Virus record (IMG/VR): IMGVR_UViG_3300029305_003961 | Span: 1-64,000 of that record | Direction: 5' to 3' (one strand) | Source: a virus | Taxonomy: Duplodnaviria; Caudoviricetes | Length of the DNA stretch: 64,000 nucleotides | Shown: positions 1 through 64,000 of the stretch, piece after piece | Layout: each line of letters opens with the position of its first letter | How positions within the stretch are numbered: the first letter of the stretch is position 1 | Translations under genes and position numbers: made by a program | Notes under the pieces: generated by a model | What the model saw: the letters and a program-made list of their open reading frames with translations, nothing else | What the model was told of the DNA's origin: nothing | The model's database searches: none

Positions 1-449
1 TAGTACTTGACAAAGATAAAAATTTTTGTAATAATAATTATAGTTTAGTTGAAGTATATACTAAACAATTTGATAAAACTACTAATAATATATGTGAATT
101 AAAGGCTATATTATATAGTTTTTTAAAATATGGAATAAATATAAATAATAAGGAATTTGCTGAAATTCCAGTTGTATATAGTGATTCCACCTATGCTATA
201 AACACCTTTGAAAATTGGATGTTCTCTTGGGCCAATAATGGATGGCGTAAGAGTGATAAAAAGATACCAGAAAATTTAGAAATTATTCAAGCCTATTATG
301 ATTGGTATCAAAAAGGTTATCGAATTGAATTGCGCAAAGTAAAAGGCCACTCAGATAATCTTTATAATAATTATGCTGACTTACTTGCTACTGGTAAAGC
401 AACTCCAGAACAAGTAAAACAAATGATTGGAGAAAATATAAATGGCTGA
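1..449 (+). CDS. rnhA: Ribonuclease HI (5' end outside the window)
   Basis: The frame is open from position 3. It shows the RNase HI motifs TTNNICELKA, YSDSTY, W..NGW....K..ENL and KVKGHS.N.YN..AD.LA. Confidence 0.9.
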   Translation, partial: VLDKDKNFCNNNYSLVEVYTKQFDKTTNNICELKAILYSFLKYGININNKEFAEIPVVYSDSTYAINTFENWMFSWANNGWRKSDKKIPENLEIIQAYYDWYQKGYRIELRKVKGHSDNLYNNYADLLATGKATPEQVKQMIGENING

Positions 450-3376
450 TAAAAAGAAATTATATAATGAAGACTCAATAGAATCGCTCAATCCGTTGGA
501 ATTTACTCGTCTAAGGCCACAAGTCTACGCAGGCGATTGCACTTATTCTACTCAACTACTGGTAGAGATTTTATCTAATGCTATTGATGAGTTCAATTTA
601 GGGCACGGAACAGAAATTAATGTTGTTTTAAATAAAGATGTAGTTATCGTAAAAGACCATGGACAAGGTTTTATTGTAAATCATACAAGAGATGATGGAA
701 AAACTATCCTAGAGGCAGCATTCTCTGTTCTCAACACTTCTGGAAAATACCGTGAAGATGGAGCATATGAAGGAACTTCATTAGGTTCTTTTGGTATTGG
801 TTCAAAAATTACAACTTTTCTATCTCACTATTTGGATGTTATAACATTTAGAGATAAACAGTTTGAAAGAATATATTTTAAAGAAGGCGTATTTGATAAA
901 CGAGAAGTCGGAAAATTAAATGATAATACAACTGGCACCATTGTTAAATGGCAACCAAGTGAAGAATTCTTTACCCATACCGAAGTTGAAATCGGTAAAG
1001 TAAAAGAACTTCTAAAGACTATTGTTTGCTTATGCCCTGGTCTAACTATTAAATTGGACAATAATGGAGAAAAAACTGAATACTTTTCTCAAAATGGACT
1101 GCGTGATTATGTAGACCAAAAGGTAAAAGATAAAGAAATCATTGATAATAGATTTTACTCCAAATTCAAAAATGGTAAAGAATCTATTGATTTTATTCTT
1201 ACTTATACCACCTCTTATAATGGAACAATTATTCCCTATGTAAATACTGGTCTTACTGAAAAAGGTTCTCATATTACTCTTATCAAGGCGCTTATTACTA
1301 AAGAGTTTAATAAGTTTTTTAGAGACCAAAAGTGGTTGAAAGAGAAAGATGAGAACTTGACTGGTGAAGATATCGCAGAAGGTCAATATATTGTCTTTAA
1401 TATTACGGCTTCTGGCGTTGCTTATGACGCACAAGTTAAGAGTAATATCACTAAGATTGATATGAAGCCTTTTATTAATGGACTAACAGAAGATTTGCGG
1501 ACTTGGCTAGAAACTAATAAGAAAGAAATTAAAGATATTGCGGATAAGGCTATTAATGCTCGGAAGGCTCGTGAGGCCGCTAAGAAAGCAAAGGATACTG
1601 TTCGTAATAAGGCTGAAAAGAAACAAAAGGCTTTGAAGTTTGATAGTAAACTTGCCGATTGTTATAGTAAACAGCGTAGCAAATGTGAAATCTATATCAC
1701 AGAGGGCGATTCGGCGTCCGGCAACCTAAAGACCGCAAGAAATAACGAATTCCAAGCAGTTATGCCTGTTCGTGGTAAGATTTTAAATACTCAAAAGGCT
1801 ACTCTTGATAAGATTCAGAAAAACGCAGAAATTATGACACTTATTGATGCTTTTGGTCTTACAATTGACCCAAAGAGTATGAAAATTACTTATAACAAAG
1901 AAGATTTACGTTATGGTAAGATTATTATTATGAGCGATGCTGATGTAGACGGCGCGCATATCAAAAATCTTTTCTATACATTCATTTGGAATTTCTGCCC
2001 GCAACTAATTCTTGATGGATATGTTTATGCGGGTGTGCCTCCTCTCTATAAAATTACTATTGGTAAGCAATACAAATATCTGAAAAACGATGAGGCTTTA
2101 GAACAATTCCGTAAAGAAAATGCCGGTCGTAAATATATTGTTAACCGCTTGAAAGGGTAAGAGATAGTCTGGCCCTTAGCTACTTTTCCTCTAATCAGAG
2201 GGGTCACAGAAATGCGGCTAACGAGGTAGTCTTCAAAATTATTTGGACATTTTAGGATAATCTGAAATGTATAAAATTCATATAATATTGAAGATAATCT
2301 CGTGGGAAAAAACTACGAATTATCTTACTGAAACAAAAAAGGTAGGATATAAACAATGATTGGTATCTATAAAATTACAAATAAAATAAATGGTCATTCT
2401 TATATTGGCTTGTCAACAAAGGTTGAAGAACGTTGGAAATACCATTTATCTCCGTATAATCAAGAACGAGAAAGTCATAAAACATTGTATTAGGCTTTTG
2501 CTAAATATGGAGTTGAAAATTTTGATTTTGAAATCCTTGAAGAGTGTAAAATAGAAGAACTTGGAGCAAAAGAAAAATATTATATTGATAAATTTGATAC
2601 ATATCATAATGGCTATAATATGACAGCAGGTGGTGAAGATAATGTGGGTCAAAGCCATCCTGGTCATAAATTAAATTAGCGTGATGTTGAAGATATACGC
2701 ATTAGGTATAATAATCTTGAACGAAGAAAAGAAGTTTATAATCTTTATAAGGACCGAATTGGCGAAAGCGGATTTGGGAAAATATGGAAGGGTGAATCTT
2801 GGTAGCATATTATGCCAGAAGTTTACACTCCTGAAAACAAAGCGTTCCATTTACATAATACTGCTAATAAAGGCAGTTCAAATGGACGCACTCGATTAAC
2901 AGAAGAAGAAGTTCGAGTTATTCGCCTTAGGCGTAAAAATGGAGAACAATTAAAAGATGTTTATGAAGATTATAAAGATAAATTAACAAAGGGTTCATTT
3001 TCAAATATTTGGTGTTATTAGAATTGGAAAGATATCGTAGTTTAAACCTGTATCGACTATCCGCTTTGTCGCGGAGTAGAATTGTTATTGATACACAATT
3101 CGAAAAGGTAGCATCCTATGACGGCAATTAAAGCGTTAGCCCGAGGATAAGAAATAGTCAGTACCATCAGTAATGATGGAGAAATATGTAGGCGAAATGG
3201 ATGTTGAAGAAACAGAAGAAACTCTTACTGACCCAGAGAACAGAATTATCAAACAAATTACAGTTGAGGATATAAAGAAAGCAGACCAGTTATTTGAAGA
3301 TTTAATGGGTGCTGGAATTGCCCCTCGTAAAAAATATATTCAAGACCACAGTGCGGAGGCAACAGGAAATGTATAA
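442..3376 (+). CDS. gyrB: DNA gyrase/type IIA topoisomerase subunit B, spliced: join(442..2158,3189..3376), about 634 aa
   Basis: GHKL motifs (EILSNAIDE, DHGQG) and TOPRIM motifs (EGDSA, PVRGKILN, DADVDG) are present. The conserved R.KGLGEM motif is restored by joining AAA GGG T to TA GGC GAA ATG. Confidence 0.93.
2245..2290 (+). promoter_or_regulatory. Candidate phage-specific promoter motif (copy 1, inside the intron)
   Basis: GGAC-N9-TAA-N16-TTCATATAATATTG. Confidence 0.55.
2356..3045 (+). CDS. Intron-encoded GIY-YIG homing endonuclease, 229 aa, 4 in-frame TAG (2491, 2677, 2803, 3019)
   Basis: Reads MIGIYKITNKINGHSYIG...YGVENFDFEILEEC...GYNMTAGG, followed by two repeated helical DNA-binding-like units. 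It ends in TAA only if TAG is read through. Confidence 0.88.
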
Positions 3377-6034: not shown

Positions 6035-6080
6035 GGGCGAAACAGATAAAATCATATTATGCTTTCTTGATAATATATAA
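6035..6080 (+). promoter_or_regulatory. Candidate phage-specific promoter motif (copy 2)
   Basis: GGGC-N9-AAA-N16-TTGATAATATATAA. Confidence 0.55.
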
Positions 6081-6096
6081 AGGAGGTAAGCATAAA

Positions 6097-7023
6097 ATGA
6101 TTTTTAGAAAAGATTTAACTAATCAAACATATGGTTTTTGGACTGTCTTAGAGTTTGACCAAGAGCGAAGTGATAAAGAAAAAAGAACTTATTGGAAATG
6201 TTAGTGCGAATGTGGAACTATCGCAAGTGTTTTAGGTTATAATCTAACTTCAGGTACATCGAGGTCTTGTGGTTGTCAATCACATAATTTAAGAAAAAAT
6301 GACCTTATTGGTCAAGTTTTTGGTTATTTAACAGTGATTGAAGATACTAAAAAATTAACCAAAGGACGCAATGTTATTTGGAAGTGCAAATGCAAATGTG
6401 GCAATGAAATTGAAGTTCCTGCGGGATATCTAATAAAAGGGTCTACATCTTCTTGTGGCTGTTATAAAAAAGAAACATTAATGAAAGATTTAACCGGGAA
6501 ACGTTTTGGTAAGTTAGTAGTGCTAGAAGAAACTGACCAACGATTAAGAGATTATATTGTTTGGAAGTGCAAATGTGATTGCGGTAATATCTGTTATATT
6601 ACAAGTTGGTGTTTAAATAACGGCCATACAAATTCATGCGGTTGTTTAAAATCTAAGGGCGAAGCTAAAATAAAAAATATATTAGACTCATATAATATTC
6701 CCTACAATACTGAACATACATTTGCTGATTTAATTTCCATTAATGGAGCTCATTTAAGATTTGATTTTGCTATTTTAAACTCTGATAATACAATTAGTCA
6801 TTTAATTGAATATAATGGATAGCAACATTATGAATGCAGTGAGCAATGGTGGAATACACAAGATAATTTTTCTACTTTACAGTAGAATGATTTATTAAAA
6901 CAATAGTATTGTAAAAAAAATAATATCGATTTAGTTATTATTCCATATGATGAATATGATAATATAACGATTGAAAAATTATTAGGAGATAAATATGAAA
7001 GAAAAAATGCGACAATTGATTGA
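6097..7023 (+). CDS. Free-standing homing-endonuclease-like protein: three Cys-rich repeats plus a C-terminal PD-(D/E)xK/Vsr-like nuclease, 308 aa, 4 TAG (6202, 6820, 6883, 6904)
   Basis: SD AAGGAGG. Three copies of DL.G..FG.L.V...WKC.C.CG...SCGC, then RFDFAI..IEYNG*QHY..ND..K..YC...NI.L..IPY. The ORF overlaps the ligA start. Confidence 0.82.
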
Positions 7024-9824: not shown

Positions 9825-10922
9825 ATGTGGGAACTTATTCTGGGAGCATTTCTTGGAGTTATTATTGGCTTAGGCGCTGGATGGCTTGTATGGCGACGCT
9901 TCCCGCAAGAAAAAATACGAGAAATTAATTATCAAAAACTCCTTGAAGAATAGGACCTCTTTTCTAAACAAAGAGAGCAAGAAGAAGAGGTAATTGCCGA
10001 ATTGGAGCGGCGAAAAGAACAGCGCCAAAAAGACTATGATTTTATGATTGATACCAACAGTAGGATTGTCGATGAATTGTAGCATAAAATCATTGCTTTA
10101 AAACTTGAAAATAGTGAAGAACAAGGCGAAATAAATAAATTAAAAACTCAAAAAATTACAATTCAAGATTCTTTAGTTGAACTAGAAAAATAGGCTTAGC
10201 AATAGGCCGATAAATTTTTCGCTTCGAGACTAGAATTGGCCGAAGAACGATTGGCGCAATCATTAGAGGCAGCCGCCCTCAAATACCAATAGGATGAAGA
10301 AGCATATCGGCGAGAATATGAAAAAACTGTCTTTGAGTGCGCAGAGGCGTTCAAAGAAGCAATAGCAGAATATCAAATTAAAATTTCTGAGGCTTCTGGA
10401 ACCTTAACCGAATTACAAAATAATATTGATATTATGGTAGCAAATGCTAAACGGGAAGAGCAAAAACGACAAGAGAAAAACTTTTATCGTTTAGTTTTGC
10501 CAGAAAGCGATATTGAAGAAATTCGTAAACTTCGTTCTGTAGAACCATATTTACGAGATAAAGAGGCTTTAAATAAAGTTATTTGGAAAGTTTATTATGA
10601 AAAGCCTTATACTGATATGATTGGTAGAATAATTGGTAATAAAATCATTACTGGTATTTATAAAATTACCAATATAGATAATGATATGTGCTATATCGGT
10701 TAGGCTGCTAATGTGGCTGACCGTTGGCGTCAACATATTAAACGTGGAATAGGTGCTGAGCCTCCGACACGCAATAAACTTTATCCGGCTATGCTGGCCT
10801 TCGGGGTAGAAAATTTTACCTTTGAACTATTGGAAGAATGTTAGCGAGATAAACTAGATGAGCGTGAAGACCATTGGCAAGATGTTTATCACGCAAAAGA
10901 TTTCGGTTATAGTATAAAATAA
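9825..10922 (+). CDS. N-terminal transmembrane helix + coiled coil + C-terminal GIY-YIG nuclease domain, 365 aa, 8 TAG
   Basis: Starts MWELILGAFLGVIIGLGAGWLVWRR, has an E/K/Q-rich helical middle, and ends TGIYKITN....CYIG*A.....RW.QH...LY.AM..FGVENFTFELLEEC. It is one frame ending in TAA. Confidence 0.82.
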
Positions 10923-12618: not shown

Positions 12619-12647
12619 TTGACTTTATTTATTAAATTTGATATAAT
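12619..12647 (+). promoter_or_regulatory. sigmaA-type promoter
   Basis: TTGACT-17 nt-TATAAT with extended TG. Confidence 0.8.
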
Positions 12648-12687
12648 ATTTATACAAGATAAATGAAATGAAAGTGAGTTAATTAAA

Positions 12688-13038: not shown

Positions 13039-13065
13039 TTTAAGTTAAGGAGATTGAAATTTATT

Positions 13066-13998: not shown

Positions 13999-14021
13999 TC
14001 CACCAATAGGAGGATTGAGTT

Positions 14022-15008: not shown

Positions 15009-15015
15009 ATATTTT

Positions 15016-15047
15016 AACCCTGGGGCAAAACCCCAGGGTTTGATTTT
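15016..15047 (+). terminator. Intrinsic terminator
   Basis: AACCCTGGGG-CAAAA-CCCCAGGGTT followed by a T-rich tract. Confidence 0.8.
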
Positions 15048-15068
15048 ATATAAAAAATTTGATATAAT
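15040..15068 (+). promoter_or_regulatory. sigmaA-type promoter
   Basis: TTGATT-17 nt-TATAAT with extended TG. Confidence 0.8.
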
Positions 15069-15098
15069 ATTTATATAAAATTATAAGGAGTGATAAAA

Positions 15099-17295: not shown

Positions 17296-17309
17296 TAAGG
17301 AGAAAAATT

Positions 17310-18929: not shown

Positions 18930-18933
18930 TTTT

Positions 18934-50600: not shown

Positions 50601-53600
50601 ATTATATTCAAGAGTACCTTTTGTTAATTCCTTTAGGCCCTCTCTTGCGGATTCATAGTTAGAAACAGTATTATTAAGTTCTTCATAACTAGCTTTGGCT
50701 TCGTCAAAACCGGCACTAACTGCTTTTGCCAGAGCTTTGGCTTGTTCAGCAGCTTTTTCTTCTTTTTTACGGTTAGCATCTACAGCAGTTGCCATAATAG
50801 CAATTCCTGCAACAACAATAGCTATAGCGGCTGCTATACCACCCATAGTCATTAATAATTCTTTACCGCTGGTAGATAAGGCTGGTATATTTGATTTTCC
50901 AGCTTTTCCCTGTACTCCATTTACCACAGTATCTTGAACCTAAGCAGCAGTTTCCTTTTTTTGTTCTTTTTTCATGGTATTGGATGCGGCTGCAGTCTTA
51001 AGTTTTTGCTTTTCTAAACGTTTTTCAGAAGCTTCATTAAGCATATTAATCATAGAGTCTTTTAATTTGGCTTGACGAAGTTCATTAAATGCACTAACAG
51101 CCATAGGAAGCACCATGCCCAACGAGGTACTAATACTTAAAAGTTTATCTCCCCAAGACATGTCCTCATTATTTAAGACATCTAGCGCGCCCTTTAAAGT
51201 ACTTAATACCATAGTTATTGTCATCGTCATATTGGCAACAAACTATAACCTTTGGCCAAATTCCATGGCATAAAAACTACTATCTCGTAAAATAGGACTT
51301 AGCCCTTCTAAAGCCTAAGATTCAGCCATAATATGCTTCTAAGTTTCTCCAGCTCCAACTCCTGCTTGTCGCTATCCTTGAATAAATTCATCAGTAGCAC
51401 CATTGACTTTTGCCTATTGAACTGCATTTTGTTGTAATACATCGGTCTATGATTCTAACGCATTATTTTTTTGTCTTACATTTTCTAAAGCCTAATTTGC
51501 TTTATCTTTAGCAACATCAACATCCTATCCTGATTGTTCAGCTTTTTCTAAATCTAATAAAGCCTATTTGGCTTCTTTTACAGCATTTGCATACTCCTTA
51601 TATTCTTCTCCTAAGTCTTTACCAACTGTATTTTGTAACTAATCAGTTGTACCTTCTGCAGTGGCACCCAATCCCTTAAGGCGAGATTCTAATTCAGTAA
51701 GACTCTTCATCTGCTAAGTAGTATTACCCACTCCACCATTAGCAATAGATGCAAAAGCGCTTTCATTTGAAATTGAAATGGCACTATTTATTTCTGCGGC
51801 CGCAGATGTCTGTTTTATCTAAGTAGCAGATTTATTAAATTCCTACTATGAAGTTTGAATTGCATTAACATCAGATGGAGTTATATTTCTAAGGGCTTTT
51901 GTAGCATTTGCTTTTTGAACACCCGCCTAAGTTCTTAAGCTTTTAATTTCATCGTCTGTGCCACCCTTACCCTCCAATTCCGCTATCTAATTTAGTGTGG
52001 CTTTTAATTTTTCAAGATTCTATAAATACTTCTATACTTGAGTACTTGAATCTCCAAACATAGATGTTAACTCTTCTTCTGTGGAATTAGCACTAATTCC
52101 TAATTCTTTAAATTTCTATTCAACCTATTGTACATCGCTAACAGTCTTAAGGTTTTTAGTCTCAGAAGGAGCTATCTATTTAACCTAATTTATATTTTGA
52201 TTTATATTTTGAGCCTATCTAATTTGACTATTAAATTCTAGATTTTTAGCATATTTTGCCTTATTAGCATCGGTATCTAATTGCATATTTCTAGTAAATT
52301 CTTCTGAGCTATAATATCTTTCATCACTTTTTTCTCTTTCACTCATCTAAACTTCAAAAGCAGCTTTTTGAGTTTCAGTTAAATTTTGTGATTTTTCATT
52401 AAATTCCATTAAAGTTTTTGCTCGGTTTTTAGCACTTTCATTTTGGGCTCCTTCTAAACCATATGAACTAGAATTAAACATATTATTTGCAGCCCATTCT
52501 TTCTACTCTGCCATTTTTTGTCTACCACTAGAAGTTAATGACATAACATTGTTTGCTATAGCAGTAGCACCCGCTGCAATCTATGGAGAAAAAGTGCGTA
52601 ATAAAGCAGTACCAACCAAAGCTAATACGCCTGGTAAACCTCCTAGACCTTCAATCATTTTATCTAAAAGATTTAAAAATCCGGTAAAAGTATCTAATAT
52701 ATCAATAAAAAATTCATCATCTAGTAATTTGCTATAAATCGCTTCCAAAGCCGCTGTCACTCGGTCTGCCGCCGCTTCCCAAGATTCAGCATAAATATCC
52801 TACTATTCTTGTAGCGTTCCAGAAGAGGCATTCGCAGTATTTAAATTTTCCTAGAAATAAGACCAGTTATCCATCAAAGCAATCAATTGAGAGTATTGGC
52901 GTACGCCGGCAACAGTTTGCGCTACAGATACCTACTATGCCTTAGATAGAGTATCCCACTTTTTGCCCATTTCATCCAAAATATCATTCATATCTTTCAG
53001 ATTACCATTAGCATCTAAAATATTAACCCCAATAGTAGCAAGACCTTCTGAGTACTAACCTAAAGTCACTCCATCTTCTAAAGTATTTCCAAGCTCCAAA
53101 TCTTGAATACGGGCAAATAAGGTTTTAAAGGCGGTACCAACTACATCCGCACTCTAACGAGTTGTTGCGGTAACAGTTGCTAGTGCCGCAGTGGCATATT
53201 CATAAGACAGACCTACTGTATTTGCAATGGCAGCAAATTTTTCTAGACCCTCAGAAATCTCATCTGAACTAGAGGCTGTCGCTGCACCCAAAGCAGTTAA
53301 TACATCGGCATAATACTCAAGACTTTTAGTTCCATCATAGAAGTTGTTCCAAACTGCTGTTAATTGGTCAGAAACAGTCTCAACAGATTGTCCAGTAATA
53401 TTGGCTAATTTAATTGTTGTTTCTGCGCGCTCCTATGCCTCTTTCATATTTAAACCCTGTTGGAAATAAATCAAAGAAGCATCGGTCATAGCGGTTGTTG
53501 TTGTACTTAATGCTTTAGCGGCTCTATTTGCCTCATTAGCAAACTCTTTCATTTCTTCAGCACCATAATTGGTAACAATACGAATATTATTTAAAGAGGT

Positions 53601-54107
53601 ATTTAATTCTTTAGTATAATCTACTGCTTCACTTATGCCCTAAACAAATCCCATGATAACACTAGAAGATAGTTGATATCTTAAAGTGTTCATAAAAGTG
53701 GCACCTAAGCGCTATATTCCCTTACTCAAGTTTAGTACTGGCGCTTCGGCAGTGGCAATTGAATAAGCCAACTTATTAAAAGCCTACTGTCCCTACGGAC
53801 CAATGGCTGTGAGTTGGGCTTTATATTTTTCAAGTGTCATTCCACTACTTTTTAATTCCTAATTAAATTTTACTAAATTTAATTTTCCTGTGTCTGCGTT
53901 GAAAGCATTTTGTAACTGAATGCGTAATTGTGCCGCAGCCTAAGAGGCTTTATTCAAATCGGCGGCGTACTAAGTGCCTACGGACGAATGCATAGAAGTG
54001 CTATTAATCTATGCCAAAGAACCTTGTAATTCAGACATAGCTCTTTTAGCAGCACTTACATCAGCACTAAATTTAAGATTTACACCTATAGTTTGATTAC
54101 TTGCCAT
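44646..54107 (-). CDS. Tail tape measure protein, about 3153 aa, dozens of TAG
   Basis: Eight tracked ORF fragments share the frame from ATG 54107 (SD GAAAGGAG) to TAA 44646. Shows an N-terminal TMP domain (LNTSLNNIRIVT, LIYFQQG, VGTAFKTLFAR), central hydrophobic helices and C-terminal FDTGGYTG.W...G.LAMLHQKE.VLN. Not every codon was checked for TAA or TGA. Confidence 0.88.
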
Positions 54108-54797: not shown

Positions 54798-54826
54798 ATT
54801 ATATCAAAAATTTTTGAGATTGTCAA
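54798..54826 (-). promoter_or_regulatory. sigmaA-type promoter (consensus) inside the virion cluster
   Basis: The - strand reads TTGACA-17 nt-TATAAT with extended TG. Confidence 0.85.
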
Positions 54827-56169
54827 TTTTCATTAATAGCAATTCGATAATCCTTTGGTTTTGTAACCGATACAGAGCCAATGGGTGCAAAGTATTTGCT
54901 TCTAGCAAATAAATTAGTATAATAAGTATAAGAATCCATAATACCCTTTGAGGTCATCATATAATAATTTCCTTTAATAATTTTATTATCTAGAAATTTT
55001 CCTAAACAATAACTAAATAAAGCCTTATAATCGGGATGCGTAGACTTTACATTGAATCGATGGGTAACATTTTCTTTCTAATACCCCTCTATACCTTGTG
55101 ATAGTATATATAAATTCCTTAAGGCTTTAGCCTAAGCATAATCTGCATTAATTACATCATAAAAAGATACTTTACCCATTGTAATATATCCTCCTCGATG
55201 ATATTTAGACTATAATCCTATTGCTGATTTCATTATCTACTACCATTCACTGTCTGTAAAGCTGATTGAACTATTATTAGATTGAGCGTTATTTAAATAT
55301 TCATGTAAATTAACTTTTTCCCCATTGCTTAATTCTATTACTAAATTTTTTTCAAAAAATAAAGCGTCTTGTGAAGCCTATTGACCACCAACTAAAATCT
55401 AACCAGTTCCAACAAAAGAAATATTTTGAGGGATTTTTACCTTTTCTTTAATAAACTTAATGCCTTCATGTTCTAACAAAGTAATACCTTTAATCTACAT
55501 GGAGAGATAGCCTAATTTACTAATGAAGTTAACCTATTCCCCTTGTTTATTCTAAAATAGGGATTTATCTAACAATATTGATGGAGTTGAGTCAACTTGA
55601 TTGCCAATGATTTGAATTAAAGTGTCTAGCTCTTGTAAATATTTATCTGTTACATTTTTCAACTAATTATTTTTAATACTACTATATATAGATAAAAATT
55701 TTTTATATGCTGTTTGTAGCTAGGAATTTGCAGAAAGCATATTTTCGACACTTGTTGAAATTGATTGAATCTATTTTAATTTTCCGGCCGACTTAAGAAC
55801 TTCATCGATACCAGCTTCTAATGCTTTGATTCCATTTTTCACTAGATTCTAAACAGCTAAATCCGCTTCCAAAAAAGCTTGTTGATTATTCATCTTAGTA
55901 AGCTATAATAGAAGTTTACTTTGCTAAAAAGTTTTTTGAATACTTAAAAAATGTTTCTTCTGTTCCAAAGCAATATCTGAAGCAGTGGGAATATTTAAAT
56001 TATTCATAAAATTAGCTTTAATACCAGTGGCATAAACAAATTGATTATTATCAGTGTTATATCCCCACATTGGCTTACCGTCATAAAAATGCTATGTTCT
56101 TCTATTATATAAAGTATTCTTATTCGATTTACCACGATTTCTAAAGTTAATATAATCACTTAATTTCAT
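54823..56169 (-). CDS. Hypothetical protein, about 448 aa, TAG-rich
   Basis: SD GAAAGGAG, ATG 56169 and an in-frame TGA at 54823. It fills a 1.35-kb gap in the ORF track. Confidence 0.65.
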
Positions 56170-56240: not shown

Positions 56241-56609
56241 TTAATGTATAACGGGAATAGTTATTTCATCGGTAAATAAAATTGATTGACCATTTTTCTT
56301 GGCATAGGCCTGAGCCTCTAAAGAAATTTCATTAACTTCATCTTTTACATCTAAAGAAATGAGAGAGATATATATCTCAGGCTAGAGTGGATCAAAATGA
56401 AGAAGAGGATCATCAACATATAAAATTTCATTTTCAGCTCCCATGTAAGACACAACAGCCTATAGATTCTCCCATTCTTCAATTGTATCATCTAACATTA
56501 AACTTCCGATATTACTTACTACATTAAAATAATAAGTATCATTAACATTTATTCCCTAACTTATATCACTTACGGCAACTAAATGAATTGATTTTAGTTG
56601 CCCTGAGTA
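56241..56609 (-). CDS. Probable -1 frameshift C-terminal extension of the tail tube protein (about 120 aa, 3 TAG)
   Basis: The -1 frame is open across the tail tube stop and runs to TAA 56241. It has no start codon or SD at its 5' end. Candidate slippery heptamer A AAC CCT at 56615-56609. Confidence 0.55.
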
Positions 56610-57580
56610 GGGTTTACAGGACCGATAACGCCATTTTCGTCTTCCTTACGAAGAGTATTGGTAGCATCTCTGTCCATCTCGTCTTGAGCGGCTCCGCCAA
56701 TAATCTGAATGGAAGCCAATACCTTTTCCTTGCGGTCAAAGCGAGTATAATCGGGGAAGGCGTCCATAGTAAAAGTAAAGGAAGAGGGATCTCCAGAACC
56801 AGCCATAGTAAATGTAAAATTAGATTGTACACGAGCATTAGGAATAATGAACTCGGCAGGCATATCTAACTGAGTTGCCTGGTCGCGGAATAAAGTAGAA
56901 GCCTCAACATAGAAAGCTCCACCGAACTTATCAGGAGTAATATTAATCTGCATTGCTCCAGAGTTCTTCTCAACATAATAATCTACTAAAATAGTATAAC
57001 CATTTAAATGAGCAGGCTTATCAATTCCGTTGGGCTTGCTAATAGTTAATACTTTATCGGCTACACTAATTTCACCGGCACCACCCTCGTTGGTATCAGT
57101 GGAGAATGGCTCACAATATAAATTATTTTGAGCGTCATAAATTAGTACGTAAACATCAGCGCCAGATTTCTTTTCAGGGGTTACAGGAGCTTCAGTCATG
57201 GTGACTTCAATAGTGCCATCTTCACTCCAAGTAACAAATTCAGTATCAGCAGCATCAATACGCTCAGTGCTATGAACATAAATAGTCTCTTCGGCACCAT
57301 CAATAATTCCAGCACCAGTCAGAATAGATAGACCCTCAGGAGAAATTAAAGCATCCTCCATAGTGAAAGTAACTGTACGCTCACCATCCCAAGACATTAA
57401 ACGAGCATTACCACGTCCACCTTGAGCGTAAACAGTAGTTGCTGCGCCTTCTAAAGTAGAAGTTTTCAGAGTGTCAAAATAAATAACGGGCTCACCCTTA
57501 TAGAAAATTCTTTTACCAACTTTCATAGGAGCCTTGGCTCTGAAAACAACATCGCAACATTCGCGAACACCAAATTTCAT
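56594..57580 (-). CDS. Major tail tube protein, 328 aa, TAG-free
   Basis: Motifs MKFGVRE, LKTSTLEGAATTVYAQGGRGN.RL..WDGE, EDAL and FTFTMA..GDPS.FTFTMDAFP. Lies between the neck genes and the tape measure gene. Confidence 0.8.
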   Translation of the reverse strand: MKFGVRECCDVVFRAKAPMKVGKRIFYKGEPVIYFDTLKTSTLEGAATTVYAQGGRGNARLMSWDGERTVTFTMEDALISPEGLSILTGAGIIDGAEETIYVHSTERIDAADTEFVTWSEDGTIEVTMTEAPVTPEKKSGADVYVLIYDAQNNLYCEPFSTDTNEGGAGEISVADKVLTISKPNGIDKPAHLNGYTILVDYYVEKNSGAMQINITPDKFGGAFYVEASTLFRDQATQLDMPAEFIIPNARVQSNFTFTMAGSGDPSSFTFTMDAFPDYTRFDRKEKVLASIQIIGGAAQDEMDRDATNTLRKEDENGVIGPVNPTQGN

Positions 57581-57608: not shown

Positions 57609-58331
57609 TTAATGAATATTCTTCATCCAACTATCAACAGGTTTATCAGGTTTAGCACCCGCTAAGCGAGATTTTAAATCGATATCCCAATTGATATATA
57701 GAGAATATCTTTCAACCAAATCATACAGTTGATACATAGTTAAGTTAATGCAATCTTGTAAAGACATAGAACCTAATCCAACAGTAAGGGTTGAAATATA
57801 CTGCGCAAAAGCGCTTCCTTCGTTATCAGCGGCCTTTTGTGCGGCTACTTTCTAACGCCCTTTCATGAGTTTATCTGCTATTTCTTTAGCCTTTTTATCA
57901 CCGGGATTAAATACCTGCTAATCAGTTTTATTTAAGCAAAATATCTAGCCAATAATCTCTTGAAATTTTTCAAAATTGTTTTCATCTATTATGGCGGTTT
58001 GTCCTTCACAATTCAAGGAAATTGCCCGAGGCGTAAAAAAAGTTGTACACTACGGAAATAATAAAGCCAACGTTGATAAAACACTTTGTTTTTTATCAGC
58101 CGTAGATTTATCATTCATAACCGTCATAAATATTTGAAAATTCGATGTAGTTGATAGAAGATTTTCGTCCTATATCACCATTTTTTTCTATATACTTAAA
58201 CACTAAATTCCTACTAAAAATTCTTTCTCCCCTAAATAAGAAATTTCTTTAAGCGTTGGCTAATGAAGCGTAATTTGTAATTCTGGAATAGGAATGTCTA
58301 CGCCAGTCATTAAGGCTAGTCTAATGTCCAT
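57609..58331 (-). CDS. Tail-module protein, 240 aa, multiple TAG
   Basis: Reads MDIRLALMTGVDIPIPE...LH*PTLKEI...AKEIADKLMKGR*KVA...LTMYQLYDL.ERY...LAGAK...WMKNIH. Absent from the ORF track. Confidence 0.75.
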
Positions 58332-58924
58332 TCTTTTTCACCATTATTAAACATTTCATTAAATTCTTTAATAAAGGCTTCATTATCCTCGGGATTAAGC
58401 ATAAACTTTTTATCATCTTCTCCGTTAATAACACTATACATTAAAGAAATGCCAGCAAATTCATCATTTAAAATAATTTGATTGGCTCCTAAAAATTGTG
58501 TTTCACCAATTCCTGCCAAATGTTTTTTATCAATCATATAATCAATTTCAGCCGCAATTTTATAGGGTCTTAATTGGAAGTCTTTTAAATGCCATTGGTC
58601 AAAATGACAAATAATATCAAAAGAAATAATATGGTCTCTAAACTCAGGATTGGTTGCGTTAGGAGTAAAATTATCGAAACTAATAATTACATAGTTCTCA
58701 ACAGTTTTATCAATAACCAATTTGGGAACAATACGAATATTTTTACCAAATAACTCATAAGTCTAATCGGCAGTAAGTTTTGCTTTATCCAAAGCGTTCG
58801 GAGTAGTGTAATATAATAATTTTTTTAATCTGTCATTTTTGAGCATTAAATTAGTAATAATACTTAAATCTTTTTCAATACTCAAAAAACTAGATTTAGG
58901 AAATTGATAATTTTCAATTTTCAT
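58310..58924 (-). CDS. Neck/tail-completion protein, 204 aa, 2 TAG
   Basis: Motifs FLSIEKD, RLKKLLYY, FDNFTPNATNPEFRD, FDIICH..W and RPYKIA.EID. Confidence 0.65.
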
Positions 58925-58941
58925 AACTGTTCTCCTTTATC

Positions 58942-59988
58942 TCAAAAAAGTGATTTAACAGTAATCTCCTTGGAAGTTTTTCCAAAAGATAAAGTAAATG
59001 TATCACTATAACTCGCAGTCCATATTAAATCAATAATATTATCGCTAATCTGTGCTTCTAGTGGCAAAGAAGCGTCATAACTCCATTCGCCATCTTCTGC
59101 ACCGTCATAACGATATCTATAAGTTTTTCGTGGCCGCATTGTATTCTCACCAACGATAATATAATCAACCTCGCTAGGAAGTTCAATCATAACTACGTCT
59201 TTAACAATACCTTGTTCTACATCATCAACCTATTCGTTTGAATAATATTCGTGAGCAGTAATTTCTAAAATACCAGGCATACTTATAGTATCAGTTGCTT
59301 CCACACGCCAGCAAATTTTATTAGTTTCCGCATCGGCACCGCGAATATAAAATTTAGCATATCTCTAAAAACGCTTTATAGTTTCATCATTTTTAGGCAT
59401 TAAAATATTTAAAGTGTGATTAGGAATATCCATATTATAATTATCTTTAGTAATAGAGTTCATCGCAGTTTCTACTGGACCGCGAATCGCAAACCAGGTA
59501 TGGTGAATTTGTCCATATTCATCTTCCCAGTTTACCCAATAATTACATTTGCGTATATCTCCTTTAAAATATGCTAACTCTGTTAAATCTTGTAAATATA
59601 TTAACCAATAGGAGGTGTCAACAGTGCCATCTTGTTTTTTACGATGCCACTAAATTACATCTCCGGGTTTATAATTATATTCATATCCAACAGACAGAAT
59701 CTTATCATCATAATCTTGTTTTACGATATTGGCATTAATCAGCGCCCTCTGTCGTATTCTAGGACAATTTACAGGAGAAATTTCTGCGGCTTGATATGAA
59801 TTAAACACGGCTCGATCAAGCGTTTTTCGCTTGGCCTGAATCATTCTTTCTTGCTAACGATAGCCGCCTTCAGCGCGCAATAAAGTTGCTTGATTATCTA
59901 CTCCTTCAGTCGCGCCAATATTTTGGTAGGGAGCCTTTTCATAAACACCCAAACGTGCTTCCATTAATTTTTTATTATGAGTAATCAC
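58942..59988 (-). CDS. Head closure/neck protein, 348 aa, several TAG
   Basis: GTG start after AGGAG. Motifs RALIN....KQDYDDKILS, WLIYLQDLTELAYFKG.IRKC and WRVEATDTIS.PGILE. Confidence 0.7.
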
Positions 59989-60283
59989 GACCGAACTCCT
60001 ATAATAAACTAATGGCTTCAAAAACAGTTTTACGATACAGGGTAAAAGGAATATCTTCCATAGCCTTTAATCCCTCTAACTTACTTAATAAAGAAATTAG
60101 AACTGAATTAAGAATTAATACTTCTTGTAATCCGGTGATTTCAAGAATTACTGTATCTAACTGTTTTTGCCAATCTTCTTCATGCTCTTTCATTGGAATT
60201 AATTTCCAAAGTTGATTAGTTAATCTCATAACATTTTTTTGCATACCCTCTACCTCTGCAAATCCATATTTAGTTAAGAGCAC
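59975..60283 (-). CDS. Hypothetical neck-region protein, 102 aa, 1 TAG
   Basis: Motifs RLTNQLWKLIPM.E and YRKTVFE.ISLL*E. Read-through ends at a TAA overlapping the next start. Confidence 0.65.
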
Positions 60284-60764
60284 TATTATCCCTCAATACT
60301 GACCAGTTAGATTCATACTTTCCGCCATCATCAAATCTGCGGCGCTTATATAAACGCTACATATGATGGGATTGGCGTTGATTTTCAGCCAGTAAAGTTA
60401 ATAGTTTTCCCAAGTGATTTGCTTGAGAGGTAAATTTAAAATCAGAACTACTAAATTTCATTCTGGTATTTTCGATAGAGGTAATTTGTCTTTGAGTCCA
60501 ACTAATCATCATTAAAATAGCGAGGATATTTATTTCCTCGCTACTTAATTCTTCGGCAAAAGAAGAAGTATCTTCGAGCACGTTCTCTGCTTCTTCAATG
60601 CTATAATCCATAAGATTTTTTCGTGGAAATTCAAAGCCAGGAATAGCATCAATAAGCAAATTGCGCAAATCACGCATAGTGTCTTCTGGAGTTAACTCCA
60701 TATACATATCGTCAGTAATTTTTCCAAGAAAGCGATTATAAACTTGAGTAAATGGTGTGCCCAT
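60270..60764 (-). CDS. Head-tail adaptor/connector, 164 aa, 1 TAG
   Basis: Motifs TPF..VY.RFL.KITDD, L..EEINILA..M...W and DFKFTSQANHL.KL...HHM*RLYKRR. Confidence 0.7.
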
Positions 60765-60780: not shown

Positions 60781-61344
60781 TTATTCTTCAATAATATTAT
60801 ATTTGCTTTCAGTTCTACGAACTTGAGTTTCTGCGTTTGTCTTCTGAACACGACGAGTGGTAGTAGAGGCTTCTACTGGAACTTCGTCCTCATCTGGCGC
60901 ATTATTCTCAATAGCGGCTGTTACATTAAAACCAGTCATCTCAAGGATTGCCTGTCTCTTAAGCATATCGTAAATGGGCAGTTCGACTGCTTTATCCTTA
61001 ATAATCTGAATAACTCCCTTAGGAGCAAAATCCAAAGCATCCTTTAATTCATCAAGAGAGCCTTGCTGTAGCATCTTAACTACATCTTCTTCACTCATAA
61101 AATATTCAGGTTCAGTGTGAATGTTTAAGTTTTTCGTGGCCTGAACTTCTTGAATTTGTAGCATATTGGTCATTAAATTACGACCGCCGGGTCTATAACT
61201 TAACCAAACTAACTCCTCATAGGGAACCTGTTTAGTTTCATTAGCATTAAATTCTCTGCGAATGCCATGCTCAGGAATACGGTATACAACACGTCCCGCA
61301 CTTCTATTTTTAACATTCACAAGTTTCTTCATATCAAATTCCAT
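60781..61344 (-). CDS. Conserved head-region protein, 187 aa, TAG-free
   Basis: SD AAAAGGAG. Motifs V.VKNRS.G.V.Y.IP and GSLDE.KDALDFAP.GV. Lies directly after the capsid gene. Confidence 0.7.
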   Translation of the reverse strand: MEFDMKKLVNVKNRSAGRVVYRIPEHGIRREFNANETKQVPYEELVWLSYRPGGRNLMTNMLQIQEVQATKNLNIHTEPEYFMSEEDVVKMLQQGSLDELKDALDFAPKGVIQIIKDKAVELPIYDMLKRQAILEMTGFNVTAAIENNAPDEDEVPVEASTTTRRVQKTNAETQVRRTESKYNIIEE

Positions 61345-61363
61345 AATAAATCTCCTTTTTCTC

Positions 61364-61406
61364 AAAAAAATAATAGGGGAGAGGGGAAATCCCCCGTCTC
61401 CCCTTA
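61364..61406 (-). terminator. Intrinsic terminator after the major capsid gene
   Basis: AGGGGAGA-GGGG-AAAT-CCCC-CG-TCTCCCCT stem with a T tract on the - strand. Confidence 0.75.
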
Positions 61407-61422
61407 ATATATATTATATTAA

Positions 61423-62463
61423 TTAAGCATTAGCCTCAATGTCTAAGCTGGAGTCGAAATAGTGGCAAACGCTGTTGTTCAGCATAGCAACTACGCCAAC
61501 CTTCTTATAAACCTGGATATCGCGGCTCCAATCGTCGTTCTCATGCTCTTTCATTAGAGTCTCGCCTTCCATTGCTACGTAGATAGGAGTACCGTTAGCA
61601 CCAGTAGCAATAACCCAGCAGTGAGCAGGATTTACAACTTTTTGGCTGTTGGTTTCATCAACGAAACTCTGCTCTAGGATAACTACGCGGGTGCCCTTGT
61701 AGTTACCTAACCAACCATTGTTCCAAATCTTCTCTTTCATTCCCTCGGTTAAATAACCTTCAGCAGGAATCATACGAACAGCAAATTCACGAGTGCAATA
61801 TACAACAGGAGTGCCGTAAGCAGCAGCAATCTGAATTAAACGGTCCATTTCATCGGGATCCCAACCATCGATAGCAACACGGTTAGCGGCAGGCAGCTGG
61901 TTAACAGCACCTTCCATAGCCTTTACTACTTCTTCCTGGATTGCCTCATCAATGCCTTCCAGAACGATGTTTAGGACTTCAGCCATATCAATACGGCCAT
62001 CTAGGAATTCTTCAAAACCGATTTGAGCAGCTCCGCCCAGTGCGCTAGTGGGTACCTGGAAGCTTTCAGTTTTCTTGCCTAGCTTGAAAACTTCATAGCG
62101 GCCAGCCAGACCAACGCGAGTGATGAACTGCTTAGCACGACGATTATTGGTACGATTACGCTTGAATTCAGGCTTGTCGCCCTGAGCGAATACCTTTACA
62201 GTAGCCAGACCAGCATAGCGGTCAGCAACACTCTTAGGAAGAACGTCATCTAAAACTTCTTCCATAATAGAGAAAATTAAGTTCTTGTTCTCACGATATA
62301 GGGAGTGAGTAGAAGCTAAAGCGTTCAACTCGTCACGCAGAGTTTCATTAACAGCGCTGTAAGTCAGGCTAGCGCCATTGAAACTATAAGCGGTAGGAGC
62401 AGAAGGATTAGCAGTCATAGCAATTTTACCTAATTGCACTAAATCTTGTTTATTTAAAGCCAT
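61423..62463 (-). CDS. Major capsid protein, 346 aa, TAG-free
   Basis: Size, position after scaffold and cement genes, and high-expression codon bias. Sequence features include IGFEEFLDGR and GWLGNYKGT.V..L.Q. Confidence 0.85.
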   Translation of the reverse strand: MALNKQDLVQLGKIAMTANPSAPTAYSFNGASLTYSAVNETLRDELNALASTHSLYRENKNLIFSIMEEVLDDVLPKSVADRYAGLATVKVFAQGDKPEFKRNRTNNRRAKQFITRVGLAGRYEVFKLGKKTESFQVPTSALGGAAQIGFEEFLDGRIDMAEVLNIVLEGIDEAIQEEVVKAMEGAVNQLPAANRVAIDGWDPDEMDRLIQIAAAYGTPVVYCTREFAVRMIPAEGYLTEGMKEKIWNNGWLGNYKGTRVVILEQSFVDETNSQKVVNPAHCWVIATGANGTPIYVAMEGETLMKEHENDDWSRDIQVYKKVGVVAMLNNSVCHYFDSSLDIEANA

Positions 62464-62481
62464 TGTTCTTCTCTCCTTTCA

Positions 62482-63171
62482 TTAAGCGATACGCATAATC
62501 TTTACGCCCTTCTGATAGTCGGGCATAGTATAAACTTTAACGACCTGCCACTGCATCTTGGCATCTTCGCCAACCTCTAGAATACCATTAGCACCAACCT
62601 TTAATAGGTCACCAACTTCTAGAGACTCAGCATTAACGCAGTTAGTGGTGAAAATATCACCAACCATAGTCTTAAATACACGAGGAACCATAGTGGTGTC
62701 TTCGGGCATTAAAGCAACTTCATTCTGAGAATAAATGCGGAAGGGGTCAGCAACAGCGTCTAAAGAATAAGGGTCAGCAGGAGCAACGATGTCGCGATAG
62801 TCGCGAGCATATAGATAATTGCCTTCCTCATCCTTTAATTCACTTAATTCACCCTTGCTGGGACTATAAACGCGAGCCTTGTAATTGCCCTTCACCATAG
62901 CAAATTCGCAATCATCCTGGCCGTCACGATATAGTTTGATTTCATTGAAAACTAGCATCCATTCGCCCTTGCCTTCAAAATTGACAAGGCCTTTTTCATA
63001 GTCGTATTTAACGAACTGACCATTTTCTAAAACGTCAATGTCAGCAGCCGCAGGTAATTGAGCATAAATCTGGCCATTGCGTTGAGCAGAAAGATGGTTA
63101 GGCTCAACCTGAGCATAGCCATAATCAACATAGGTGGCTTGGCTCAAGCCTTCTAAAAATGTTTTAGCCAT
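62482..63171 (-). CDS. Capsid cement/decoration protein, 229 aa, TAG-free
   Basis: Motifs GYAQVEPNHLSAQRNGQIYAQLPA, LENGQF.KYD, PR......GDIFTTN and TMPD.Q.GVK. Lies immediately upstream of the capsid gene. Confidence 0.7.
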   Translation of the reverse strand: MAKTFLEGLSQATYVDYGYAQVEPNHLSAQRNGQIYAQLPAAADIDVLENGQFVKYDYEKGLVNFEGKGEWMLVFNEIKLYRDGQDDCEFAMVKGNYKARVYSPSKGELSELKDEEGNYLYARDYRDIVAPADPYSLDAVADPFRIYSQNEVALMPEDTTMVPRVFKTMVGDIFTTNCVNAESLEVGDLLKVGANGILEVGEDAKMQWQVVKVYTMPDYQKGVKIMRIA

Positions 63172-63195
63172 TTTCTATATCCTCCTTAAAAATTA

Positions 63196-64000
63196 TTACA
63201 TAGTTTTCTGCTTGTCAAGCACAGCTTTAATCCAAGCAGGCATAGATTCATCTCCAGCGGTTTGATCTAAATTATAAGTGACCGTACTAGCAGGAGTTTC
63301 CTCTTCTTCTGAAGCAAAACTAATTTTATTGCGGAACGCAATAACAGAAAGTTTTGATTCAATATCATCAAGAGAATAAGTATCAATGTTATCTAAAACG
63401 TCTTTCTTGTCTTCAGGAGATAACATATAGAAGGTTTCGTTAATCATAACCTCTTTTTCTTTTCTCTCAATCGCCATTTTAAAAGCAGTTAATTCATTAA
63501 TCTGCATTTCTAAATTTGCCTTATCGGCTTCCCAAGTGGTCTTAGCGGCCTCTAAGGTAGCGTTTTCGGCCTACAAACTTTCATAGTTTGCTTGTAAAGC
63601 AGAATAAGTCTGGGAAAGTTCCATATATTCTGGAATTTCTTCCAAAACATATTTATCTTTCTTGTCCTCATCCTCTTCTTCACATTCACATTCATCAAGT
63701 GGCTTACCACACTTAGGACAAACTTCCTTATCTTCTTCTTCCTTTTCAGGCTTTTTACTAGCGGCATATTCTGCCACATAGTTATTATAAGCCTCTAAAG
63801 AAAATTGAGGTTCAGCGGCAGGAACAAATTCCTTGCTAACTTCAATCAATTCCTCAGAAGCACTAAAGCCCTCTTCAGTAAGAGTAAAGTTCAAGCGGAA
63901 ATAATCCATAGTGGTACGATGTTGAAGAATAGCGAATTTTTGACCTTCTTCCTCATAGATGCCTTCAATACGATAGACAGTACAATATTCGCACTCCTCA
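63196..64000 (-). CDS. Prohead scaffold/protease C-terminal region (5' end outside the window), 1 TAG (63571)
   Basis: ORFs 63571..63909 and 63196..63507 are co-framed. Acidic coiled coil, CPKCGKP..ECEC, YSLDDIE.KLS and PAWI.AV. Confidence 0.72.

What the first reader, a model, noticed from the sequence alone, without database searches (positions are those of the whole stretch)
1..64000. Amber (TAG) stop codon reassigned to a sense codon, almost certainly Gln (genetic code 15)
Seen: more than 25 genes are interrupted only by in-frame TAG, continue in the same frame and end in TAA or TGA. No convincing gene ends in TAG. An internal repeat of the 15099 protein aligns TAG with Gln (FV*TSARRYAHADC vs YIQITNSTYAHVKC). 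TAG also falls where I recall Gln in the families: GIY-YIG YIG*A, RuvC ALD*AS, RecJ *IDSDCDG and GK*HGL, NrdD LM*SERRDVA, and WKC*CECG. Established: TAG-to-Gln recoding occurs in gut phages whose hosts use code 11.
Basis: partly seen in the sequence, partly recalled or inferred. Interest (0 to 1): 0.85.

Follow-up and report, generated by a model that had tools for sequence, protein, structure and literature searches.

The report
Phage reads TAG as glutamine
This is half of a roughly 170-200 kb gut phage genome that uses the stop codon TAG as a glutamine codon, mostly in late genes; this kind of recoding is real here but already well described in gut phages.

Summary
Treating TAG as sense raises ORF coverage of the window from 0.62 to 0.93. 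TGA-sense gives 0.64 and TAA-sense 0.77. About 27 genes carry roughly 199 in-frame TAGs and no in-frame TAA or TGA, including a 3153-aa tape measure with 94.

In 160 related IMG/VR loci, TAG columns align best with Gln. Of the 15 TAG columns at sites at least 80% conserved, 13 are Gln (P about 1e-18). Glu, Lys, Leu, Tyr and Ser are rejected.

TAG placement is non-random and conserved across the clade. The replisome, major capsid protein, scaffold and tail tube avoid TAG. The portal, terminase, sigma factor, tape measure, tail genes and homing endonucleases use it.

No tRNA(CUA), release factor or GlnRS lies on the contig. The contig is only about 59% complete. In the collinear relative, a 42-tRNA array with two tRNA(CUA) genes lies just past the point where this contig ends.

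The closest named phage is Phass-1, a published TAG-to-Gln group. This is therefore a new member of a known kind.

The scan holds 37 notes on amber-recoded phages in at least 35 genomes; the follow-ups I saw read TAG as Leu, Tyr or Glu. Here it is plain Gln.

The parts
44646..54107 (-). Tail tape measure protein, 3153 aa, 94 in-frame TAG (45% of its Gln-type codons)
40350..44561 (-). 1403-aa tail or host-recognition protein, 15 TAG
54823..56169 (-). 448-aa late protein of unknown function, 17 TAG
35419..39937 (-). Two tail proteins (730 and 779 aa), 7 TAG each
57609..60764 (-). Head-tail connector or minor virion genes with 8, 2, 4 and 1 TAG. Several of these TAG columns are invariant Gln in relatives (58942 gene position 56: Q 45/45; 60270 gene position 136: Q 50/50).
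63196..64000 (-). 3' part of a 520-aa head gene (runs to 64758), 3 TAG. The portal (9 TAG), terminase (5) and sigma factor (6) follow just outside the window.
19012..20766 (+). RecJ-like exonuclease, 3 TAG. Close relatives have Gln or TAG at all three positions.
28378..30666 (+). NrdD anaerobic ribonucleotide reductase, 1 TAG (relatives: R/K/Q)
2356..3045 (+). GIY-YIG homing endonuclease between the two topoisomerase genes, 4 TAG
6067..7023 (+). HNH homing endonuclease, 4 TAG
9825..10922 (+). 365-aa protein with a C-terminal GIY-YIG domain, 8 TAG. The TAG in YIGX is Gln in 43 relatives and TAG in 15.
15090..15776 (+). Protein with two zinc-ribbon repeats. Its TAG in repeat 1 aligns with Gln in repeat 2.
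32395..32907 (+). RuvC-like Holliday junction resolvase, 4 TAG. ALDX matches ALDQ in relative G006.
32852..35400 (.). Turn-around region with small TAG-bearing genes (4, 2, 2 and 1 TAG) and a TAG-free holin (33902-34291)
11228..28306 (+). Core replication block, TAG-free apart from RecJ and 15090-15776: ThyA, Sak4-like, DnaB, primase, Dda helicase, DnaE-like polymerase, guanylate kinase. The orthologues in TAG-recoded relatives have 0.2-3 TAG per 1000 codons.
60781..63171 (-). Three TAG-free head genes, including the major capsid protein 61423-62463 (HK97 fold) and a presumed scaffold 62482-63171
56594..57580 (-). TAG-free virion structural protein, presumed tail tube. It has 0.1 TAG per 1000 codons in 43 recoded relatives.

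Best explanation
The window is the left two thirds of a 96.7-kb fragment of a large siphovirus from herbivore or human gut. CheckV puts the fragment at 59% of the genome. Full genomes in the clade are 165-200 kb. The phage is distantly related to phage Phass-1.

In this phage TAG is a sense codon for glutamine, and genes end only in TAA or TGA.

Shown here:
- TAG is in frame in about 27 conserved genes.
- The aligned residue in relatives is Gln.
- The pattern is shared by most of the clade.
- TAG is kept out of the replisome and out of the most abundant virion proteins (major capsid, scaffold, tail tube).
- TAG is frequent in the portal, terminase, a phage sigma factor, the tape measure, tail proteins and homing endonucleases.

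Inferred:
- Early genes are translated under the host's standard code.
- A phage tRNA(CUA) with a tRNA-Gln-like acceptor stem is charged by host enzymes. It is probably encoded in a tRNA array of about 40 genes lying about 8 kb past the right end of this contig.
- That tRNA turns TAG into Gln, which allows synthesis of the TAG-bearing late proteins.
- TAG therefore works as a translational gate on late functions.
For: Coding density: 0.62 to 0.93, for TAG only.

TAG counts per gene, all ending in TAA or TGA.

Gln assignment from 80 portal-region and 80 RecJ-region relatives:
- 914 of 2412 informative cells are Gln.
- Log-likelihood is -5491 for Gln against -7701 for Lys.
- 13 of 15 conserved TAG columns are Gln, P about 1e-18.
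- 125 of 298 cells are Gln in standard-code relatives alone.
- RecJ, GIY-YIG and RuvC TAG columns are Gln in close relatives.

The tape measure is collinear with uninterrupted tape measures of standard-code relatives.

Gene-class pattern conserved in recoded relatives: MCP 0.3, tail tube 0.1 and DnaE 0.3 TAG per 1000 codons, against portal 10.8, terminase 8.2 and sigma factor 9.4. The MCP has the HK97 fold.

Contig completeness and the missing tRNA:
- The contig is 59% complete and ends inside an ORF.
- The collinear relative G006 begins 3 kb after a 42-tRNA array that holds two tRNA(CUA) genes.
- tRNA(CUA) was found in the six TAG-recoded genomes whose tRNA arrays were recovered (G007, G009, G010, G013, G014 and both halves of G021). 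It was absent from two standard-code relatives.
- RF2 is present in G007.

Literature: bioRxiv 10.1101/2021.08.26.457843, PMC9523058 and PMC10607447.
Against: No tRNA(CUA), release factor, or GlnRS/GluRS is present on this contig. The decoding agent for this particular phage is therefore inferred from relatives.

The host, and hence its genetic code, is unknown. MAG bin names for related contigs disagree with each other.

There is no protein-level evidence.

Some TAGs lie 1-3 codons before the TAA/TGA stop and could still act as stops early in infection.

At many variable columns the relatives have Lys, Glu or Arg rather than Gln. This is the substitution pattern expected for Gln, but it is not proof on its own.
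Confidence: 0.88

Rival explanations
1. TAG is decoded without a phage suppressor tRNA. The phage inactivates or outcompetes host RF1, and host tRNA-Gln(CUG) or a host suppressor reads UAG by a G36-U wobble at the first codon base.
For: No tRNA(CUA) is on the 96.7-kb contig. Borges et al. detected suppressor tRNAs in only 40% of TAG-recoded genomes. Near-cognate Gln insertion at UAG in RF1-deficient cells is established knowledge, stated from my memory and not checked here.
Against: The collinear relative has two tRNA(CUA) genes just past the point where this contig ends. Every TAG-recoded relative whose array was recovered has at least one. Ninety-four TAGs in a single gene need near-complete decoding at each codon, which near-cognate reading is unlikely to give.
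Confidence: 0.07
2. TAG is a sense codon for an amino acid other than Gln, such as Glu, Leu, Tyr, Ser, Lys or pyrrolysine.
For: Other follow-ups of this scan report phages that read TAG as Glu, Leu or Tyr (these are unchecked AI notes). Several relatives carry CUA tRNAs with a long extra arm, which resemble Ser, Leu or Tyr tRNAs at first sight.
Against: Log-likelihoods are far worse for every other residue: Lys -7701, Glu -8185, Ser -9076, Tyr -10529 and Leu -10891, against Gln -5491. Thirteen of 15 conserved TAG columns are Gln, with one Glu and one Arg. The long-arm CUA tRNAs have tRNA-Gln bodies, and their genomes also show Gln at conserved TAG columns.
Confidence: 0.03
3. The TAGs are true stops. 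The genes would be decayed pseudogenes of a dead prophage, or the TAGs would be low-level programmed read-through sites.
For: Under the standard code the late genes are fragmented.
Against: TAG is the only stop found in frame. There is no TAA or TGA in about 22,000 codons of TAG-bearing and neighbouring genes. TAG positions sit at conserved Gln columns. The pattern is shared by dozens of diverged relatives under purifying selection. A read-through efficiency of 90% per codon would still give only about 5e-5 full-length tape measure.
Confidence: 0.01

Closest known systems
Phage Phass-1 and the proposed Phassvirus group (Babkin et al. 2023, PMC10607447; OQ749652)
   Same: It is a gut siphovirus with TAG recoded to Gln in 41 ORFs, mostly virion genes plus some DNA-processing genes. 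It has 36 tRNAs, including three tRNA(CUA), and no dedicated aminoacyl-tRNA synthetase. Its tape measure is 3149 aa, against 3153 aa here. It is the best named hit for the portal (39% identity over 90% of the length).
   Different: It is only a distant relative, with 39% portal identity. The Phass-1 genome is 136 kb, whereas this clade's complete genomes are 165-200 kb. This contig lacks the tRNA array. The samples here appear to come mostly from herbivore gut.
Code-15 (TAG to Gln) phage clades of Borges et al. (bioRxiv 10.1101/2021.08.26.457843), especially the large Agate-type phages
   Same: Late structural genes are recoded while replication genes are only variably recoded. Code 11, code 15 and code 4 are mixed within one clade. 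RF2 is present in some TAG-recoded genomes. Suppressor tRNAs are detectable in only part of the genomes.
   Different: Membership in a named gemstone clade could not be tested, because their sequences are not at hand. Here the most abundant virion proteins (MCP, scaffold, tail tube) and the holin are TAG-free, so the split is not simply early against late genes.
crAss-like phages with proteomically validated TAG = Gln (Peters et al. 2022, PMC9523058)
   Same: The codon reassignment is the same, and gene calls are equally fragmented under table 11.
   Different: They belong to an unrelated phage order (podovirus-like Crassvirales infecting Bacteroidota). There is no proteomic evidence for the present phage.
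Amber suppressor tRNA-Gln(CUA) of E. coli (supE)
   Same: The relatives' tRNA(CUA) genes keep the tRNA-Gln acceptor features U1, G2, G3 and G73 together with a CUA anticodon. This is the logic by which supE inserts Gln at UAG.
   Different: supE is a weak cellular suppressor in a cell that still uses UAG as a stop. Here the codon is used hundreds of times as a regular sense codon. Some relatives' copies also carry a class II-like extra arm.

Membership tests
TAG-to-Gln (code 15) recoded phage | In-frame TAG in conserved genes, with TAA and TGA absent from the same frames | tested here: met
TAG-to-Gln (code 15) recoded phage | Coding density is restored specifically when TAG is read as sense | tested here: met
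   0.62 to 0.93. TGA-sense gives 0.64 and TAA-sense 0.77.
TAG-to-Gln (code 15) recoded phage | TAG columns align with Gln in homologues | tested here: met
TAG-to-Gln (code 15) recoded phage | Phage-encoded suppressor tRNA with anticodon CUA | tested here: inconclusive
   None is on the contig. The contig is 59% complete. The collinear relative has two tRNA(CUA) genes just beyond the equivalent of the contig end.
TAG-to-Gln (code 15) recoded phage | Recoded codon concentrated in late (structural or lysis) genes | tested here: met
   15.3 TAG per 1000 codons in the late module against 2.8 in the replication module. The exceptions, conserved in relatives, are the TAG-free MCP, scaffold, tail tube and holin.
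TAG-to-Gln (code 15) recoded phage | Host uses the standard code | not testable with these tools
   The host is unknown, and MAG bin names for related contigs are inconsistent. The nearest cultured relatives infect Bacillota.
TAG-to-Gln (code 15) recoded phage | Gln observed at TAG sites in the protein | not testable with these tools
   This needs metaproteomics.
Phass-1-like phage group (Babkin et al. 2023) | Homologous signature proteins and the same overall layout: siphovirus, tape measure of about 3150 aa, large tRNA set with tRNA(CUA) | tested here: inconclusive
   The portal is 39% identical. The tape measure is 3153 aa against 3149 aa. tRNA arrays were seen only in relatives. No phylogeny was built.

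The most novel reading that the evidence does not exclude
TAG may be a selective gate rather than a blanket late-gene code, conserved across the clade. It is excluded from the bulk virion proteins (major capsid, scaffold, tail tube), from the holin and from the replisome. It is required in the phage sigma factor, portal, terminase, tape measure, tail proteins and homing endonucleases.

On this reading the code switch, meaning expression of tRNA-Gln(CUA), would sit upstream of the late transcription switch and of particle assembly and DNA packaging. The proteins made in the largest amounts would avoid dependence on a limiting suppressor tRNA.
Probability: 0.35. Interest if true: 0.5.

Novelty: new member of a known kind. 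Interest (0 to 1): 0.3.

Why it matters
Practically, any table-11 annotation of this phage and its many IMG/VR relatives is badly fragmented, and mis-binned copies in MAGs share the problem. The tape measure alone breaks into about 95 pieces. These genomes should be annotated with table 15.

Biologically, the finding adds one more large Bacillota-type siphovirus lineage to the recoded gut phages. It also provides a clade in which code 11, code 15 and code 4 members are close enough to compare codon by codon. The data show which gene classes tolerate the recoded codon.

It does not change what is known about how such recoding works.

Tried and rejected
Searches that found nothing:
- Relatives of the 1403-aa tail protein in IMG/VR: none.
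- Relatives of the last complete gene at the right end, and an exact-match search for the contig end: none. The contig could therefore not be extended.
- RF-1/RF-2 domain and GlnRS/GluRS catalytic domain on the contig: none.
- A custom scan for a CUA anticodon stem-loop with a T-arm on the contig: nothing credible.

tRNA-like candidates that were set aside:
- A weak Rfam tRNA hit next to tRNA-Lys (genome 76420-76492, 29.7 bits). Its anticodon arm does not pair and it has no CUA, so it is rejected as the suppressor.
- An odd 97-nt tRNA-like gene in relative G006, with CUA inside a 16-nt loop. It has no homologue here or in four other relatives.

Other dead ends:
- Solved RecJ and NrdD structures do not have Gln at the TAG-aligned sites.
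- Pfam gave nothing for the TAG-free late genes.
- The AlphaFold model of the presumed tail tube was too poor to search (pLDDT 51).
- Host assignment from MAG titles failed. The bins are named Gastranaerophilales, Bacilli, Agathobacter, Muribaculaceae, Clostridia and Treponema.
Full report
**What the window is.** The window is the first 64 kb of a single 96,663-bp virus record. IMG/VR classes the record as linear, and CheckV rates it 59% complete.

PHROG scans give two modules.
- The plus strand, 442-33454, is a replication and nucleotide-metabolism module. It holds two topoisomerase II subunits, NAD ligase, ThyA, a Sak4-like protein, DnaB, primase, RecJ, a Dda-like helicase, a 1295-aa DnaE-type polymerase like SPbeta YorL, guanylate kinase, NrdD, dUTPase and a RuvC-like resolvase. 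Three homing endonucleases are interspersed.
- The minus strand, from 33469 to about 72.8 kb, is a late module. It holds a holin, tail proteins, a 3153-aa tape measure, virion proteins, head genes, portal, terminase and a sigma factor.

GC skew flips at about 32 kb.

**Checking the observation.** Under table 11 the late module is shattered. With TAG read as sense, long ORFs appear that end only in TAA or TGA.

Greedy ORF coverage of the window is 0.62 under table 11 and 0.93 with TAG as sense. The controls give 0.64 with TGA as sense and 0.77 with TAA as sense.

About 27 ORFs in the window carry roughly 199 in-frame TAGs. The tape measure has 94, and the chance of 3153 codons with no TAA or TGA at its composition is about 1e-81. 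The two other frames of that gene hold 132 and 382 TAA/TGA codons. The tape measure aligns over 3029-3147 of its 3153 residues with the uninterrupted tape measures of two standard-code relatives.

**Which amino acid.** The portal, which lies just outside the window, retrieved 80 IMG/VR loci at 51-89% identity. RecJ retrieved another 80. I translated our genes with X at each TAG, ran tblastn against these loci, and read the codon opposite each X.

In the late region, 2412 informative cells over 43 TAG columns gave Gln 914, Lys 304, Glu 287 and Arg 195. This is the substitution spectrum expected for Gln. I scored the TAG columns against the substitution profile of each of the 20 residues in the same alignments. 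Gln fits best at logL -5491. Lys is next at -7701, Glu scores -8185, and Ser, Tyr and Leu are far worse.

Every near-invariant column opposite a TAG is Gln. Examples are portal positions 162, 281 and 453, terminase position 225, and four others. Restricting to columns at least 80% conserved, 13 of 15 are Gln. Gln makes up only 63 of 2158 conserved columns, so the binomial P is about 1e-18. Against relatives with no in-frame TAG at all, 125 of 298 cells are Gln. Reciprocally, the relatives' own TAGs fall mostly on our Gln (822 cells; next is Lys at 164).

In the replication module the results are:
- RecJ X70: Q 36, TAG 25.
- RecJ X109: Q 48.
- RecJ X28: Q 20.
- The GIY-YIG 'YIGX' site: Q 43, TAG 15.
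- RuvC 'ALDX' matches 'ALDQ' in the collinear relative.

These show Y/H, a gap, and K/E at the RecJ and NrdD sites. Those sites are simply variable outside the clade.

**Distribution of TAG.** TAG density is 2.8 per 1000 codons in the replication module and 15.3 in the late module. TAG supplies 8% and 32% of Gln-type codons respectively.

The split is not simply early against late. Within the replication module nearly all TAGs sit in the homing endonucleases, RecJ and RuvC, while the replisome proper has none.

Within the late module four genes have none, where 11.2 would be expected (P = 1.4e-5):
- the presumed tail tube (56594-57580);
- a 194-aa head protein;
- the 346-aa protein 61423-62463, which has the HK97 capsid fold;
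- the presumed scaffold.

The holin is also TAG-free.

The same pattern holds in TAG-recoded relatives:

| Gene | TAG per 1000 codons |
|---|---|
| MCP | 0.3 |
| scaffold | 0.3 |
| tail tube | 0.1 |
| DnaE | 0.3 |
| primase | 0.4 |
| portal | 10.8 |
| terminase | 8.2 |
| sigma factor | 9.4 |
| 57609-58331 orthologue | 29.5 |

This agrees with another first-stage note on this genome (e1-5938134).

**What decodes TAG.** ARAGORN and Rfam find only tRNA-Lys(UUU), at genome 76500-76572, and next to it a degenerate tRNA-like element with no usable anticodon arm. A custom scan found no CUA anticodon hairpin. No release factor or GlnRS/GluRS domain is present.

The contig is a fragment. It ends inside an ORF. 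Related records of 71-105 kb are rated 43-61% complete, and near-complete ones are 165-178 kb, one of them with terminal repeats.

Those genomes carry arrays of 8-42 tRNAs. The TAG-recoded ones include tRNA(CUA), while two standard-code relatives do not.

The closest near-complete relative is G006 (176.6 kb). It is collinear with our contig: our 219-95292 corresponds to G006 128.6-6.1 kb. G006 appeared to lack tRNAs. However, the same phage is embedded in a 402-kb record. There the G006 sequence starts exactly 3 kb after a 42-tRNA array that holds two tandem tRNA(CUA) genes.

By synteny the array should begin about 8 kb past our right end. The CUA tRNAs have tRNA-Gln acceptor features (U1, G2, G3 and G73). 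One relative encodes RF2 with SPF and GGQ motifs.

The most likely mechanism here is therefore a phage tRNA-Gln(CUA) charged by host enzymes. For this phage the step is inferred, not shown.

**Comparison with what is known.** TAG-to-Gln recoding of late genes in gut phages is established. Borges et al. (bioRxiv 10.1101/2021.08.26.457843) report clades that mix codes 11, 15 and 4. [quoted passage not shown] Peters et al. (PMC9523058) gave proteomic proof in crAss-like phages.

The best named hit for our portal is phage Phass-1, at 39% identity. Babkin et al. (PMC10607447) describe it as a siphovirus with TAG = Gln, 36 tRNAs including three tRNA(CUA), no dedicated synthetase, a 3149-aa tape measure, and a wider monophyletic group of recoded relatives.

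Our clade shows the same mix of codes. Most members read TAG as sense. Six loci have no in-frame TAG (one more, L016, has two), and one reads TGA as Trp (6 of 9 sites).

**Verdict.** This is a new member of a known kind, of moderate-to-low interest in itself.

The scan's index holds 37 notes on amber-recoded phages in at least 35 genomes. The follow-ups I saw read TAG as Leu, Tyr or Glu (unchecked AI notes). I tested those alternatives explicitly here and they are rejected.

The parts worth a second look are side observations. One is the conserved exclusion of TAG from bulk virion proteins while the sigma factor depends on it. The other is the long-arm tRNA-Gln(CUA) genes in several relatives.

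Noticed in passing
relatives: L088 2602-2692(-), L095 1110-1202(-), L128 2516-2610(+), L127 1688-1775(+), L269 2265-2361(-): Several TAG-recoded relatives carry tRNA(CUA) genes of 88-97 nt. These have a class II-like extra arm (for example CCUC-UGAAG-GAGG) on a tRNA-Gln-like body with U1, G2, G3 and G73. One copy is 83% identical to a tRNA-Gln(CUG) core. TAG is still Gln at conserved columns in those genomes. I found no paper describing such a tRNA.
   Followed up: partly
L267+L268 (G021 199001-232000) and L269+L270 (G021 1-30000): The 402-kb IMG/VR record is two related phage genomes of about 200 kb joined head to tail. Each is preceded by a tRNA array of 18-20 kb (39 and 42 genes) with two tandem tRNA(CUA) genes. 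The 176.6-kb record G006 starts exactly 3 kb after one of these arrays. Assemblies of this clade seem to break at the array.
   Followed up: yes
L001 12420-12492 (+), i.e. genome 76420-76492, outside the window: A tRNA-like element (Rfam 29.7 bits) sits directly upstream of tRNA-Lys(UUU). Its acceptor and T arms are intact but its anticodon arm is unpaired. It is probably a decayed tRNA.
   Followed up: partly
L245 19008-19104 (-): Relative G006 has a 97-nt tRNA-like gene with its own -10 box, a long extra arm, and a 16-nt anticodon loop, CUUUGGUCUAAGCCUU, that contains CUA. It has no homologue in this genome or in four other relatives.
   Followed up: partly
L040; L014-L017, L079, L083: One portal clade (51-89% identity) holds three codes. 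Most members read TAG as sense. Six loci have no in-frame TAG (L016 has two). L040 has 9 in-frame TGA codons, 6 of them aligned with Trp.
   Followed up: partly
L145 865-1917 (+): Relative G007 (178 kb, TAG-recoded) encodes a 350-aa release factor 2 with SPF and GGQ motifs. The gene itself has no TAG.
   Followed up: partly
window 58310-58924(-), 35419-37611(-), 2356-3045(+); also genome 66750-68492, 73005-73319, 74358-74687, 91196-91618: Six to eight genes have a TAG only 1-8 codons before their TAA/TGA stop. These may be former TAG stops now read through to a nearby back-up stop, or stops that still work early in infection. The enrichment over chance is weak.
   Followed up: partly
window 2356-3045, 6067-7023, 9825-10922: The homing endonuclease genes inside the otherwise TAG-free replication module are TAG-rich (4, 4 and 8 TAGs). 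Their orthologues in relatives are too, at 9-15 TAG per 1000 codons.
   Followed up: partly
genome about 82.1-88.5 kb (L002), e.g. 84783-84819, 85774-85814, 88469-88507: A repeated sigma-70-type promoter (TTGACA, 17 nt, TATAAT, with conserved flanks) recurs in the early region. It is shared almost verbatim with relative G006.
   Followed up: no
G009 also has a tRNA(UCA) beside its tRNA(CUA).
   Followed up: no
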